Positions 60,745 through 63,966 of a stretch of 64,000 bases of DNA are shown in pieces. The notes under the pieces were generated by a model that had not been told where the DNA came from, made no database searches, and saw nothing but the letters and a program-made list of their open reading frames with translations. Source of the stretch: Raillietiella orientalis (lineage: Eukaryota). How positions within the stretch are numbered: position 1 is the first letter of the stretch; every line of letters begins with the position of its first letter. A program made the translations under genes and the position numbers. The stretch is taken from assembly GCA_036172245.1 (NCBI GenBank), contig JAYWIR010000014.1, positions 3,162,001 to 3,226,000 of the forward strand. The letters are read 5' to 3'.

Positions 60745-63700
60745 CTACAAGAGAAAAAAGAAAGGGAGGCGAGAGAGGACGCGTGGCTCGTCCCGCCGCC
60801 TTCCCCCCGGCGGGCGGAAGAAGGGGGGGGGCAGTGGCGGCCGCCACCACTCACCAGGCAGTCGAGCTGCGAGACGGGCGACTTGCTGTACTGCTGGCCG
60901 ACGTCCCACACTTTCACGCAACCCTTCCCTCCGGTGTACACGTACTTTGTGGGGTTGGAAATGGTCACCGCGCACACCACCTCGCCGTGGGGCAGAGTCG
61001 ACACCTGGCGAGCCTGGCGCGGGATGCCGGCCCCGGCCAGGGCGTCCGGAGGGAACACGACGGGCTGTAGCTGACCCTCGGGGAGCACGCGGAACGAGTA
61101 CGGCCTGGGGGGGGGACCAAGCAGGCAGTGAAGGGGAAGATTCAACCAAAAAAAAAAAAAAAAAGGGAAGAGAAGGGAGGGATGGGGGTGGGTGGAGGCC
61201 AGCGGACGACGCCCATGAGAATGAGGAAGGGGGCAGCGAGGGAGCAAAGCGCCGACGGCAACGGAGTCGCGGAAGGAGATGCGAGCGAGCGGGGACCCCG
61301 AGCGAACTCTTGAGGGCGCCGAGGGAAATCGAAAAGCAGCGACAGCAAGAGCTAGAACGCAAACAGCGCCTAAGCGGGAGAAGACGGGCGCGAAAGGGAG
61401 CGACCGGGATACCGAGTGACCTCCGCAGCGTGCGGAGCCGCAGAGGGGGTGACGAGAGCCGCTTAGAGCGGGGGCGCCAGCGGGGCGGAAAGGAGAACGC
61501 GAACGGGGGACGCTGCGCGTGGGAACGGGGCGACCACCACCACCACCATCACGAAGAAGAAGGAGAAGGTGCTCACGGTTTTCCTCCTGCGAGTGACGGC
61601 AAGCTGAGCCCGGAGACGGCGCGCAGCTGCCCGTGGGGGTCGTAAGCGGCGCCCAGCAGGGGTCGCGGGTAGCCGTTGATGGCGCCGTGCCCGGGAAGCC
61701 CGTAGGCCCCCGGAGGAAGTTCGGCTGCCAGGCCAGGTCCTATGCCGGCCCCAAGGTAGGTTGGCGGCCCTGAACTGGCGTGACTGCTGACGGACCCGCC
61801 CTTCGAGCCTTTGAGGGACTCGCGGTTGGTGGGCGTCATGGACTTGGCGGTGGGCGTGGACGGCTTCTCGTCGCTGAGCTTGCGACCAGCGGGCGTGCTC
61901 CCGGACGAGGACGTCCCGGAGGATCGAGGGCTGTGCGGGGGTTCCTTCTTGTCGCGGGGGGAGAGGCGGCCATTCACCCCGGGGGTTTCCTGAAGAGGGA
62001 GGAAGAGAGAAACGAGGTGAGGTGAAACGGAACGGGCGAGTCGGGGGGGGGGGGGGGGGGAGAGGGACCGATGTCGACGGCGCCGGAGGAGGCGTGGCGT
62101 CTGCCGCCTCCTCTCCTCCCACCCCTCTCCCCCGTGCCGCGGGGCGAGAGTCGCCGTCGTTCCTCACCTCCGCGTCGTCCACCACGAGATCCTGGTCGCT
62201 GCGCTCGCCGTCGCTGGCCTGGCGCGACACGCGCCCGTCGCCGCAGGGATAGCTGGACTCCTTCTCCTTCTTGATCTTCTTGTGGTCGACCACGTCCGGG
62301 CTGCGCGCGTGGTACTTGTCGAGAGGCGACATGGAGCGCCGCTGCAGCGACATCCCCCACTGCAAGGCAGCCCGCGCGGTGGCGCAGCCCGTGCCGGCGC
62401 CGCGACGGGGACTCACGTGGCGGTCCTCGAGCTGCCCGAGGGCGCTACCGATCTTGGAGTCGGGCTCGCGGTGCAGCTCCGGCTTGGCGCTCATGAAGCC
62501 GAACTGCGGGTGCATGGGCCCGGCCAGGGAGCTCAGCGCCAAAAGGCCCGCGGCGCTGGTCGGGGGCAGGCCGGGCCCCCCGGGGAGGCCAGGGTGAGAC
62601 ATGATGGGGAGCGGGGGGGCGTGAGCAGCCGCGGCGGCGGCGGCCGCTGCCGCCGCGGCGGCGTGCGGCAGCTGGCCAGCGGTGGCGGCGTGCTGCAAGA
62701 AGAAGAAGGGTGGGCCGGGGGTGAGCGCGCGCCTTTCCCCCGAGCAAGGGGGAGGTTCATTCCTCACCCCGATGATCGAGTTCAGCTCGGAGACGGTCAC
62801 TTGCTTTGCTCGATCGACCGCTGCTGCCACCTGCTGCTGGTGCTGACAAACAGCACGTTGCACCCCCTATGTTTCTCGCGCCACGACCCCACTGACCTCT
62901 TGCGAAAGGAACGGCAGGAGCTGGGCGATGATGGTGTTCAGGCGCTTGACGATCTCGCTCTGCAAACGCGCGCGCAGTCAGCACCGGCGGGTCGCCCCCT
63001 CCCAGCCCTCTCACCTGCTTGTGCATCTCCACGTTCAGCCCGTACGACATCTCGTAGTACTGAAACACAGCGCGCGTAAGCGTGGAGCGTGGGAGGAGGG
63101 TGGAGGGGGGGGGGGAAGTGAGAGCGGTGCAGAGGGCGCGCGCGAGCAAAGCGGTCGAAGCGGCCGGTGCGTGCGTGCGTGCGTGCTAGGACCACATGCG
63201 CCAAGGCAGAGCCGCTGGGTGCAGTTTCCTCATCCCCCGTACTCACCATCACGTAGTGTCTCTGCAGCTCCGTCTTTTCCTGCACAAGCTTTTCGTAGTC
63301 CATTTTAGCGCTGAAAACAAGCAAGGCGATTAGCTGGAAGCCGACCCCGCCCGCGAGAATGACCCGACGAGGAAGGAAAGGAGGCCAAGGGGCAGCCTCC
63401 CGGGGTCCGTGGCGCTGAACCTCCCTCCTTTCCGTAGCCTCCAGAGCTACGGGGGAGGGGGGGGGGGAAGAAGAGGCACGCCAGTGCTCCTCGCTTCCCT
63501 CCCTCCCCCTCCCTGAGACCGGGATCGGGAGCCGAGCGATCCCGCTTGCTGGAGTGGAAATGGAGAGGGAAAGAGGAGGGGGCGAGTCCATCAGGTCTCC
63601 GGGACGGCGGTCGCGGGATAAAGTCAGGTCCAGCCGTCGCGTAGGCAGCTCCGATGCGGTCAGGACACACGCGCGATGAGAGAGAGCGAGAGAGAAGGGG

Positions 63701-63966
63701 GGGGAATGGGGAAGTGGATGAGAGAAAAAAGGGGTGGCAGGGCGGTGGCCAGTCGCGGAAGCACGATCGCGCAGTTGCCGACTTTTTTTCCTAGCCAGGA
63801 TCGAGACCCTTGTGCTGCCCCAGCTTAGCAGAAGCGTGCTGCGCTGGTTAGATGCGGCCGCTGGTCGCCTAGCAACGCCCGCATGCAGGTAAAGCTACTC
63901 ACCATCACGTAATGCCTGTGTATCTCCAGTTTCTCACCGACTAGTTTTTCGCATTCCACCTTTAAA
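60013..63966 (-). CDS. gro: Groucho/TLE transcriptional corepressor, spliced, 5'-incomplete (first exons lie beyond position 64000)
   Basis: Exons join in frame at canonical GT-AG sites: [63903-63966 or 63247-63310], 63015-63059, 62897-62959, 62768-62842, 62417-62692, 62168-62341, 61577-61989, 60855-61104, 60013-60744. The translation gives the Q domain ([28 protein letters not shown]...PFLSQE-HQQQV...RAKQVT), the CcN motif (KKIKKEK...[13 protein letters not shown]), an SP region ending GGKP, and the TLE WD40 propeller ending [18 protein letters not shown]. Confidence 0.98.
60855..61104 (-). CDS. gro: Groucho exon PYSFRV...[42 protein letters not shown]...SQLDCL (first WD40)
   Basis: 250 nt, ccccag acceptor and gtgagt donor. 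Confidence 0.97.
61577..61989 (-). CDS. gro: Groucho SP-region exon (ETPGVNG...AYDPH...GGKP)
   Basis: 413 nt, cttcag acceptor and gtgagc donor. Its phase-2 end matches the next exon. Confidence 0.92.
62168..62341 (-). CDS. gro: Groucho CcN exon (NLS plus CK2-type site [13 protein letters not shown])
   Basis: 174 nt, ctgcag acceptor and gtgagg donor. The internal 30 nt at 62219-62248 may be an intron remnant (see findings). Confidence 0.82.
62417..62692 (-). CDS. gro: Groucho GP-region exon with a 13-Ala tract
   Basis: 276 nt, ttgcag acceptor and gtgagt donor. Contains the AGLLALS motif typical of the GP region. Confidence 0.88.
62768..62842 (-). CDS. gro: Groucho exon [25 protein letters not shown] (end of Q domain)
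   Basis: 75 nt, tgtcag acceptor and gtgagg donor. Confidence 0.96.
62897..62959 (-). CDS. gro: Groucho exon [21 protein letters not shown]
   Basis: 63 nt, ttgcag acceptor and gtcagt donor; flanking introns of 55 and 54 nt. Confidence 0.97.
63015..63059 (-). CDS. gro: Groucho exon [15 protein letters not shown]
   Basis: 45 nt, tttcag acceptor and gtgaga donor; highly conserved Q-domain motif. Confidence 0.97.
63247..63310 (-). CDS. gro: Groucho Q-domain exon, copy A ([21 protein letters not shown]), candidate mutually exclusive exon
   Basis: 64 nt, acceptor gcttgttttcag, donor gtgagt. Same length and phase as copy B. Confidence 0.92.
63903..63966 (-). CDS. gro: Groucho Q-domain exon, copy B ([21 protein letters not shown]), candidate mutually exclusive exon
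   Basis: 64 nt, acceptor tcttgtttgtag, donor gtgagt. Translation matches the TLE [21 protein letters not shown] segment. Confidence 0.92.

What the first reader, a model, noticed from the sequence alone, without database searches (positions are those of the whole stretch)
63247..63966. Duplicated, apparently mutually exclusive exon in the Groucho Q (tetramerisation) domain
Seen: two 64-nt exons 592 nt apart, with the same phase and both with cttgttt..ag acceptors and gtgagt donors. They encode [21 protein letters not shown] and [21 protein letters not shown]. 13 of 21 residues are identical, and 8 of those 13 use different synonymous codons, which suggests an old duplication with both copies under purifying selection. 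Because 64 is not a multiple of 3, including both or neither shifts the frame. No other groucho exon lies between them. Established: this segment lies in the first amphipathic helix of the Q domain, which mediates oligomerisation and TCF/LEF binding. Inference: a splicing switch swaps that helix (L/A, C/Y, G/Q, L/T, H/Q) and could tune oligomer or partner choice. I cannot check whether this has been described in other invertebrates.
Basis: partly seen in the sequence, partly recalled or inferred. Interest (0 to 1): 0.85.

Follow-up and report, generated by a model that had tools for sequence, protein, structure and literature searches.

The report
Alternative Groucho Q-domain exon pair
A Groucho/TLE co-repressor gene carries two tandem 64-base exons that encode alternative versions of part of its oligomerisation helix; the same either/or pair is already annotated in many insects, so this is a further example of an old, little-discussed splicing switch.

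Summary
On the minus strand, exons 63966-63903 (B) and 63310-63247 (A) are each 64 nt, share phase and AG/GTGAGT borders, and lie 592 nt apart. They encode 21-residue homologues (13 of 21 identical, 8 of those 13 with different codons). Both match the same positions of Pfam TLE_N. Including both gives a stop at codon 2 of A. Skipping both gives a stop 8 codons into the next exon.

The comparative evidence is strong. Twelve equal-length annotated isoform pairs in 9 insect species of 5 orders differ only in this segment. Four metatranscriptome contigs of one unnamed organism show the same 64-nt swap. The window's A and B fit the two classes: position 13 is T versus aliphatic, position 10 is Q/A versus S/N/G, and position 15 is M/L/I versus I, S in Nasonia.

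The segment sits mid-way in the first long Q-domain helix. Three of its six coiled-coil core positions differ between A and B.

Verdict: very likely a real mutually exclusive exon pair and a new member of a kind already annotated. I found no paper on it in four searches. Its function is inferred, not tested.

The parts
63903..63966 (-). Exon B (upstream copy), 64 nt. One base completes the previous codon, then [21 protein letters not shown]. 'B-type': C at position 5, G at 10, L-E-I-H at 13-16.
   Evidence: Pfam TLE_N positions 26-46, E=4.2e-6
63967..64000 (-). The last 34 nt of the intron upstream of exon B: pyrimidine tract and AG acceptor (AG at 63968-63967). The window ends here, so the upstream Q-domain exons are out of reach.
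63311..63902 (-). 592-nt intron between B and A. GTGAGT donor at 63902-63897 and AG acceptor at 63312-63311. G+C-rich with C- and CT-runs. No Groucho-like coding piece inside.
   Evidence: inverted repeats are only G-run/C-run pairs; no excess RNA folding
63247..63310 (-). Exon A (downstream copy), 64 nt. One base completes the previous codon, then [21 protein letters not shown]. 'A-type': A at position 1, Y at 5, Q at 10, T-E-L-Q at 13-16.
   Evidence: Pfam TLE_N positions 27-46, E=2.6e-6; read in frame 0 after exon B it gives R then a stop
63060..63246 (-). 187-nt intron after exon A, with a GTGAGT donor at 63246-63241.
63015..63059 (-). Constitutive next exon, [15 protein letters not shown], phase 0. 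If both alternative exons are skipped, its frame gives a stop at codon 8.
62897..62959 (-). Following Q-domain exon, [21 protein letters not shown].
   Evidence: Pfam TLE_N positions 62-82, E=2e-5
60013..62896 (-). Rest of the Groucho/TLE gene: end of the Q domain, the variable middle region and the WD40 propeller. The last 243 residues plus the stop codon lie in one open stretch, 60013-60744.

Best explanation
The two 64-nt exons are a mutually exclusive pair made by tandem exon duplication in a Groucho/TLE co-repressor gene. Each mature mRNA is expected to carry exactly one of them. The protein therefore comes in two versions that differ only in 21 residues in the middle of the first long helix of the Q (tetramerisation and TCF-binding) domain.

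Exclusivity is enforced at least by the reading frame, because 64 is not a multiple of 3. B plus A gives a stop at the second codon of A. Skipping both gives a stop 8 codons into the next exon. Such mRNAs would encode only a stub and are expected to be degraded.

The pair is most likely orthologous to the A/B pair annotated in insects. The A-type keeps the ancestral T at position 13. The B-type has an aliphatic residue there.

In the window, 3 of the exon's 6 coiled-coil core positions differ between A and B: positions 1, 5 and 15, heptad d, a and d. The likely effect is to retune packing in the Q-domain coiled coil, and so self-association, mixing of the two isoforms, or partner binding.

Shown: the anatomy, the frame logic, homology to the Q helix, and the either/or use of the same exon classes in other species. 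Inferred: either/or splicing in this organism, orthology with the insect pair, and any functional consequence.
For: 1. Anatomy. Equal length, equal phase, AG/GTGAGT borders, 13 of 21 residues identical, and 8 of the 13 conserved codons changed synonymously.

2. Homology. Both exons match the same TLE_N profile positions.

3. Frame. B plus A gives 'R*'. Skipping both gives a stop at codon 8 of the next exon.

4. Insect isoforms. There are 12 equal-length isoform pairs in 9 insect species whose only differences lie inside this 21-residue segment.
- Rhopalosiphum maidis, Adelges cooleyi, Melanaphis sacchari, Planococcus citri (2 pairs) and Acromyrmex echinatior.
- Nasonia vitripennis.
- Schistocerca gregaria.
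- Arctopsyche grandis (2 pairs) and Menopon gallinae (2 pairs).

5. Transcript-level swap. Contigs L014 and L012 are 97.9% identical over 3362 columns with 42 mismatches, 24 of them in the one 64-nt segment. The flanks are identical. L021 and L019 carry the L012 form. L019 still has intron-like sequence ending in 'cag' in front of it.

6. Class fit.
- Window A is 15-17 of 21 identical to insect A-types and 13-14 of 21 to the two common insect B-type forms (11-12 to the two chalcid-wasp B-like forms).
- Window B is 14-16 of 21 identical to insect B-types and 12-13 of 21 to A-types.
- A versus B within the window is 13 of 21.
- In every pair seen, position 13 is T (S in Nasonia) in one form and I, M or L in the other. 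The single-form sequences seen in chelicerates, molluscs and vertebrates have T or S there. Two single-form metagenome contigs of unknown origin have A or T.

7. Structure. An AlphaFold2 model of a homologous Q fragment has one helix over residues 7-80, with the segment at 28-48. It superposes on TLE1 Q-domain 4OM3/4OM2 with TM 0.83-0.92.

8. Heptad register. The best register puts hydrophobic residues at 18 of 21 a/d positions and places exon positions 1, 5, 8, 12, 15 and 19 in the core.

9. Base rate. The three predictive criteria for mutually exclusive exons in PMC3228551 (passages read) are all met. That paper found them in only 0.56% of non-exclusive exons on the Drosophila X chromosome.
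Against: There is no RNA evidence from this organism.

The insect isoforms are mostly automated models. I could not see their RNA support or their genomic exon order.

Part of the similarity between A-types is shared ancestral state. Window A is even closer (18 of 21) to the single form seen in copepods. Orthology therefore rests mainly on the derived B-type signature in a 21-residue segment. At position 13 the window has L, whereas most insects have I.

Several arthropod groups showed only one form among the cluster members listed: beetles, moths, leafhoppers, mosquitoes and chelicerates. Three genomic metagenome contigs have a single copy. The pair is therefore not universal, and independent origins are not excluded.

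I found no regulatory RNA structure, so what chooses between A and B is unknown.
Confidence: 0.8

Rival explanations
1. The duplication is real, but in this organism only one copy is spliced in. The other is a silent or rarely used relic that has not yet decayed.
For: No transcript evidence could be obtained for this organism. Exon A deviates at otherwise well-kept positions: A at position 1, Y at 5 and L at 15.
Against: Both copies keep an open frame, an AG acceptor with a pyrimidine tract and a consensus GTGAGT donor. This holds even though 8 of the 13 conserved codons have changed synonymously, which points to long divergence under constraint. Each copy carries the class-specific residues seen in the expressed forms of other species.
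Confidence: 0.08
2. The pair is mutually exclusive here but arose independently of the insect pair. Similar constraints on the coiled coil then produced look-alike A and B classes by convergence.
For: The segment is only 21 residues long. Window A is closest (18 of 21) to the single form seen in copepods. Window B has L and H where most insects have I and Q. Several arthropod lineages and three genomic metagenome contigs show a single copy. The organism could not be placed: its variable region is only about 40-45% identical to any protein in hand.
Against: Exon length (64 nt) and phase are identical in the window and in the L012/L014 transcripts. The discriminating positions 10, 13 and 15 are the same in all pairs from five insect orders, in the unnamed transcript pair and in the window. 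Same-class identity across species exceeds A-to-B identity within the window.
Confidence: 0.15
3. The choice is tied to alternative promoters. Exon B is used by the full-length transcript. Exon A is mainly joined to an alternative first exon inside the 592-nt intron, giving a protein with a truncated Q domain.
For: Two ant models start immediately before the A-type exon: P0277 begins MYN followed by the A-type segment, and P0278 has an unrelated leader.
Against: In all 12 isoform pairs the A-type exon follows the same upstream Q-domain sequence as the B-type. The L012 and L021 transcripts join the A-type exon to the normal upstream exon. I identified no first exon in the window's intron, though I made no dedicated search for one.
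Confidence: 0.05
4. Exon B belongs to a separate, truncated Groucho paralogue or pseudogene lying just upstream, not to this gene.
For: The window ends 34 nt upstream of B, so what B is spliced to cannot be seen.
Against: B is on the same strand, 592 nt from A, with a consensus donor and no downstream partner exons of its own. Only one YYEMSYG exon and one set of later exons exist in the window. The arrangement matches the one-gene isoform pairs of other species.
Confidence: 0.02

Closest known systems
Annotated A/B isoform pairs of insect groucho / 'transducin-like enhancer protein 4' genes (for example Rhopalosiphum maidis X1/X2, Planococcus citri X1/X2, Acromyrmex echinatior X1/X2, Nasonia vitripennis X1/X33, Schistocerca gregaria X5/X7, Arctopsyche grandis X1/X2, Menopon gallinae)
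   Same: The same 21-residue slot of the Q domain is exchanged. Protein length is equal. The two classes are the same: position 13 T versus aliphatic, position 10 Q/A versus S/N/G, and position 15 M versus I (S in Nasonia). The window's middle region is also most similar to this insect gene group.
   Different: The window's copies are more diverged: Y at position 5 and A at position 1 in A, and G10, L13 and H16 in B. The organism is not one of these and is not close to them. The insect evidence is at protein-model level only. I saw neither their genomic exon order nor any paper on the pair.
Metatranscriptome contigs L014 versus L012/L021/L019 (unnamed organism)
   Same: The swap is exactly 64 nt, in the same phase and between identical flanks. 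One form has T at position 13 and Q at 10. The other has M at 13 and S at 10.
   Different: These are transcripts rather than genomic DNA, so the tandem arrangement is not seen. The proteins are about 60% identical to the insect group. The best DNA match of any fetched locus to the window gene was 80%, and these contigs were not among the best 15.
Clusters of mutually exclusive exons made by tandem exon duplication, as defined in PMC3228551. Classic cases such as muscle myosin heavy chain clusters (PMC3912159, listing and abstract only) and, from recall, Dscam, 14-3-3 zeta, tropomyosin and FGFR2 IIIb/IIIc.
   Same: Neighbouring internal exons of equal length, equal phase and homologous sequence that encode the same structural element. 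Joint inclusion breaks the frame.
   Different: This is a two-member cluster only. I found no docking/selector RNA pairing. The target is a coiled-coil oligomerisation helix of a transcriptional co-repressor.
Vertebrate TLE paralogues (TLE1/4, TLE2 and TLE3 forms of the same helix segment)
   Same: The same 21 residues vary between family members at the same kind of positions. The vertebrate TLE3 form has Y at position 5, as window exon A does.
   Different: In vertebrates the variants are encoded by separate genes, not alternative exons. All keep T or S at position 13. No B-type (aliphatic 13) form was seen among them.

Membership tests
Groucho/TLE co-repressor gene | N-terminal Q domain (Pfam TLE_N, PF03920) | tested here: met
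   Exon A matches at E=2.6e-6 and exon B at E=4.2e-6. Exon 62897-62959 matches at E=2e-5. Each score is below the 32-bit whole-protein cut-off only because each piece is 21 residues. The start of the domain lies beyond the window.
Groucho/TLE co-repressor gene | C-terminal WD40 propeller highly similar to Groucho/TLE proteins | tested here: met
   The 243 residues of 60013-60744 have WD40 family matches. They are mostly 90-95% identical to named groucho/TLE proteins.
Groucho/TLE co-repressor gene | Middle region (GP, CcN, SP) collinear with family members | tested here: met
   tblastn with P0007 and P0059 gives collinear pieces from 62962 down to 60016. The middle region is about 40-45% identical to insect proteins.
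Mutually exclusive exon cluster (criteria of PMC3228551) | Exons of very similar length | tested here: met
   64 nt and 64 nt.
Mutually exclusive exon cluster (criteria of PMC3228551) | Conserved splice sites and reading frame, compatible with the same neighbours | tested here: met
   Both have AG ... GTGAGT borders. Both start with the third base of a split codon and end in phase 0.
Mutually exclusive exon cluster (criteria of PMC3228551) | Homologous encoded sequence | tested here: met
   13 of 21 residues are identical, and both match the same Pfam profile positions.
Mutually exclusive exon cluster (criteria of PMC3228551) | Transcripts of this gene contain exactly one of the two exons | not testable with these tools
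   No reads could be laid. The feature is met in other species by isoform models and by transcripts L012/L014.
Insect-type Groucho A/B Q-helix pair | One copy with T (or S) at position 13 and Q/A at 10. The other with an aliphatic residue at 13, S/N/G at 10 and I (S in Nasonia) at 15. | tested here: met
   Window A has Q10, T13 and L15. Window B has G10, L13 and I15. These were compared with the pairs.
Exclusivity by competing RNA structures (docking and selector sites) | Conserved complementary intron elements next to each variable exon | tested here: inconclusive
   Only low-complexity G-run/C-run inverted repeats were found. The 986-nt pre-mRNA stretch folds no better than shuffles: z=+0.52, and 16 of 20 shuffles fold at least as well. 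The upstream intron is outside the window and no relative's genomic DNA was available for covariation.
Exclusivity by steric hindrance or U2/U12 incompatibility | An intron between the exons too short to splice, or one U12-type and one U2-type splice site | tested here: not met
   The intron is 592 nt, and both exons have GT-AG borders with GTGAGT donors.

The most novel reading that the evidence does not exclude
The A/B exon pair is an ancient binary switch, pan-insect and probably older, in the hydrophobic core of the Groucho tetramerisation coiled coil. It creates two classes of co-repressor that assemble preferentially with their own kind, or bind TCF and other partners differently. It went unnoticed because Drosophila and vertebrates lack it. 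In some lineages (beetles, moths, vertebrates) separate genes may do the same job that alternative exons do elsewhere.
Probability: 0.3. Interest if true: 0.7.

Novelty: new member of a known kind. Interest (0 to 1): 0.5.

Why it matters
Groucho/TLE is a central co-repressor in Notch, Wnt and segmentation pathways. Its Q domain must oligomerise to work and to bind TCF (review PMC7458405, passages read).

A conserved either/or exon that rewrites half of the core positions of one stretch of that coiled coil would give cells two co-repressor flavours from one gene.

The switch is present in at least five insect orders and in this unplaced, G+C-rich genome. I saw no such pair for Drosophila or vertebrates in the representative listings. 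The standard models may therefore not show it.

For annotation, the practical point is that gene models here should contain B or A, never both. For biology, it offers a clean, testable handle on whether Q-domain packing specificity is used to regulate repression.

Tried and rejected
- Whole-genome look-up: none is held for this window. The upstream exons, and any third copy beyond 64000, could not be examined.
- Sequencing runs: one metatranscriptome run, X1, holds 0.07 of the sampled words. This says nothing for or against expression.
- Third homologue search (variable region, 'longer'): I set max_evalue to 1e-8 and nothing passed. The search was wasted, so it is no evidence about close relatives.
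- Organism identity: not resolved.
  - The WD40 part is about 93% identical to nearly all arthropod and vertebrate hits.
  - The variable region is only about 40-45% identical to the best proteins, with insects ranking first.
  - The best DNA match among 78 metagenome loci was 80%.
- Docking/selector RNA structures: none convincing.
- Primary structure paper on the TLE1 Q domain (Chodaparambil et al. 2014): not held. I used a review, the PDB sequence and fold matches and my own heptad count.
I stopped that step and used the per-type identities already computed.
- Literature: four searches found no paper on alternative Q-domain exons of groucho. I saw only titles and abstracts of the hits.
  - groucho + mutually exclusive exons.
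  - groucho + Q domain + alternative splicing + isoforms.
  - groucho + mutually exclusive + exon + insect.
  - mutually exclusive spliced exons + arthropods.
  - Supplementary exon catalogues were not opened and may list it.
- Earlier notes of this scan: nothing.
- Pfam on 67 ORFs of 1-60000, chosen for a low share of R, P, G, A and S out of 755 ORFs of 60 or more residues in the window: no family at E<=1e-4.
- A complex prediction was not run. A pass would reflect likeness to the solved TLE1 tetramer and would not separate A:A, B:B and A:B.
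Full report
WHAT IS THERE

The window's last 4 kb carry a Groucho/TLE co-repressor gene on the minus strand. The last 243 residues of its WD40 propeller, with the stop codon, lie in one open stretch at 60013-60744. 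They are mostly 90-95% identical to named groucho/TLE proteins. The middle region and the later Q-domain exons align collinearly with two full-length homologues.

The two features of the finding are exactly as described.
- Exon B is 63966..63903 and exon A is 63310..63247. Each is 64 nt.
- Each is preceded by a pyrimidine tract and AG, and followed by GTGAGT.
- They are separated by a 592-nt intron.
- In both, the first base completes a codon begun upstream, and 21 codons follow.
- B encodes [21 protein letters not shown] and A encodes [21 protein letters not shown].
- 13 of 21 residues are identical, 8 of these 13 codons differ synonymously, and 41 of 64 bases are identical.

Each peptide alone matches Pfam TLE_N at the same profile positions, with E=2.6e-6 and 4.2e-6. 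A motif scan of all six frames found no third copy in the window. No other Groucho exon lies between the two. The window ends 34 nt upstream of exon B, so the first Q-domain exons and any further copy are out of sight, and no genome is held.

WHY EITHER/OR

Exon B ends in phase 0. If exon A followed it, A would be read as R then a stop. If both were skipped, the next exon (63059..63015) would be read out of frame, with a stop at its eighth codon. Only mRNAs with exactly one of the two exons encode a Groucho protein.

The three predictive criteria for mutually exclusive exons are similar length, conserved splice sites and frame, and homology. All three are met. In the paper that defines them, they were found in only 0.56% of non-exclusive exons on the Drosophila X chromosome (PMC3228551, passages read).

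Other mechanisms have no support.
- The intron is long, and both exons have ordinary GT-AG sites.
- The only inverted repeats are G-run/C-run pairs.
- The 986-nt pre-mRNA stretch folds no better than shuffles: z=+0.52, and 16 of 20 shuffles fold at least as well.

DIRECT RNA EVIDENCE

There is none for this organism. One metatranscriptome run held 0.07 of the sampled words.

COMPARATIVE EVIDENCE

First search. A search with the WD40 exon returned 120 family members. Of these, 92 carried the complete 21-residue segment. Only one, P0059, had a form like exon A: A at position 1, no cysteine at position 5, and 17 of 21 identical to A against 13 of 21 to B.

Second search. A search centred on that segment, followed by three cluster look-ups, showed why such forms are rare among representatives. 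The two forms are isoforms of one gene and collapse into one 90% cluster.

Isoform pairs. Reading the cluster members gave 12 equal-length isoform pairs in 9 insect species. Their only differences lie inside this segment.
- Rhopalosiphum maidis: 7 differences, residues 53-67.
- Adelges cooleyi: 7 differences.
- Melanaphis sacchari: 7 differences.
- Planococcus citri: two pairs, 8 differences each.
- Acromyrmex echinatior: 5 differences (for all of the above).
- Nasonia vitripennis: 8 differences, residues 140-158.
- Schistocerca gregaria: 5 differences, residues 51-65.
- Arctopsyche grandis: two pairs, 3 differences each.
- Menopon gallinae: two pairs, 5 differences each.

I dropped one equal-length pair (P0268/P0270) because it joins two species. 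I dropped a Culicoides pair because its differences are at residues 2-6.

Groups with only one form. Among the members listed (at most 15 per cluster, so absence is weak), only one form was seen in these groups.
- B-type only: beetle TLE4-like genes (8 of 8 with the segment, plus 3 of 3), moths (15 of 15) and leafhoppers (7 of 7).
- T at position 13 only: mosquitoes (14), Culicoides (5), sciarids (4), cockroach/termite 'groucho' (11), spiders (12), scorpion (8), a soft tick (12), horseshoe crabs (6) and a millipede (2).

TRANSCRIPT-LEVEL PROOF ELSEWHERE

I fetched 78 metagenome or metatranscriptome loci with the WD40 exon. Of these, 31 contain the YYEMSYG exon.

One group of near-identical contigs differs by the swap. 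L014 carries [21 protein letters not shown]. L012, L021 and L019 carry LKIEAEKLAQEKTEIQRQYIM.

L014 and L012 are 97.9% identical over 3362 columns with 42 mismatches. 24 of these lie in the one 64-nt segment, which sits between identical flanks. There are 3 mismatches in the next 600 nt.

The predicted proteins are 810 and 808 residues, and their first 175 residues are identical apart from the segment. L019 has intron-like sequence ending in 'cag' directly before the exon. No other group of near-identical contigs showed a swap. Three genomic contigs (L011, L059, L075) have a single copy.

THE TWO CLASSES

In all pairs, one form has T at position 13 (S in Nasonia), with Q or A at 10 and M, I or L at 15. 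The other form has I, M or L at 13, with S, N or G at 10 and I at 15 (S in Nasonia).

The named single-form sequences from molluscs, vertebrates and chelicerates have T or S at 13. Two single-form metagenome contigs of unknown origin (L073, L078) have A or T there. The aliphatic-13 form is therefore the derived copy.

The window fits both classes. A has Q10, T13 and L15. B has G10, L13 and I15.

The identities point the same way.
- Window A is 15-17 of 21 identical to insect A-types and 13-14 of 21 to the two common insect B-type forms (11-12 to the two chalcid-wasp B-like forms).
- Window B is 14-16 of 21 identical to insect B-types and 12-13 of 21 to A-types.
- A versus B within the window is 13 of 21.

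This favours one old duplication shared with insects. The case is not closed. The segment is short. Window A is closest (18 of 21) to the single form seen in copepods. The organism itself could not be placed.

WHERE IT SITS IN THE PROTEIN

The aphid isoforms both carry TLE_N over residues 28-152, with the segment at 53-73. Their N-terminus matches the TLE1 Q-domain crystal structures 4OM2/4OM3 by sequence.

An AlphaFold2 model of the L014 Q fragment (20-sequence alignment, mean pLDDT 84.8) has one long helix over residues 7-80, with the segment at 28-48. The model superposes on 4OM3/4OM2 with TM 0.83-0.92 and rmsd 1.3-1.7 Å.

The Q domain is described as a dimeric coiled coil that dimerises head-to-head into the active tetramer and mediates TCF binding (review PMC7458405, passages read).

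The best heptad register of the long helix puts hydrophobic residues at 18 of 21 a/d positions, against 14 of 22 for the next best register. It places exon positions 1, 5, 8, 12, 15 and 19 in the core.

In the window, positions 1 (L versus A), 5 (C versus Y) and 15 (I versus L) differ. Positions 8, 12 and 19 are constant.

The inference is that the swap retunes core packing and could alter stability, self- versus mixed assembly, or partner binding. I did not test this. I did not run a complex prediction, because a pass would only reflect likeness to the solved tetramer.

COMPARISON WITH WHAT IS KNOWN, AND NOVELTY

This is an ordinary kind of system, a two-member cluster of mutually exclusive exons from tandem duplication, in an interesting place. 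The same pair is already present in automated insect annotation, so the window adds a member rather than a new kind.

Four literature searches found no paper describing it. I saw only titles and abstracts of the hits and did not open supplementary exon catalogues.

Vertebrates vary the same helix segment through separate TLE genes. One of them has Y at position 5, as exon A does.

VERDICT

- Confidence that this is a mutually exclusive pair: about 0.8.
- Chance that the pair arose independently of the insect pair: about 0.15.
- Novelty: a new member of a known kind.
- Interest: 0.5.

Noticed in passing
window 1-60000: The 60 kb downstream of the Groucho gene is 52-66% G+C. It gave no Pfam family for 67 ORFs chosen for non-junk composition. 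The gene itself is compact, about 4 kb with short introns, but it sits beside a long stretch with no recognisable protein domain.
   Followed up: partly
window 60013-60744 (-): The last 243 residues of the WD40 propeller are encoded without an intron. All 78 metagenome loci fetched match this stretch as one uninterrupted piece, in full (residues 1-243) in most of them, including contigs of 9-27 kb that look genomic.
   Followed up: no
window 63090-63115, 63450-63515 and 63690-63745 (-): The introns around exon A contain long C-runs, G-runs and CT-runs. These account for nearly all inverted repeats found.
   Followed up: partly
window about 62600-62680 (-): The Groucho middle region contains a run of about 13 alanines ([18 protein letters not shown]) that P0007 and P0059 lack at that place.
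   Followed up: no
proteins P0277 and P0278 (ants): Two ant models begin immediately before the A-type exon: MYN plus the segment, or an unrelated leader. This hints at an alternative first exon in the intron upstream of the A-type exon, and at a form with a truncated Q domain.
   Followed up: no
proteins P0043, P0264, P0265 and P0106 (chalcid wasps): Chalcid wasps have a further Groucho protein in a separate 90% cluster that carries only a B-like form (ERIETH/ERLETH). In Nasonia this is in addition to the gene with the alternative pair.
   Followed up: partly
beetle and moth proteins (for example P0044 versus P0067, P0079 versus P0202): Beetles and moths show two separate Groucho proteins: one with T at position 13 and one with I at 13. 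Among listed members, only the B-type was seen in the second. Separate genes may stand in for the alternative exons in these lineages.
   Followed up: partly
loci L051 and L053: A relative of the L012/L014 organism, with about 76% DNA identity, carries an A-like segment (…QEKTEIQRQYIM) that keeps the cysteine at position 5. Schistocerca does the same. Loss of that cysteine is therefore not a fixed mark of the A class.
   Followed up: partly
locus L011: In this 11.3-kb metagenome contig, the Q-domain exons lie on the strand opposite to the WD40 match. This suggests two Groucho genes or an inverted assembly.
   Followed up: no
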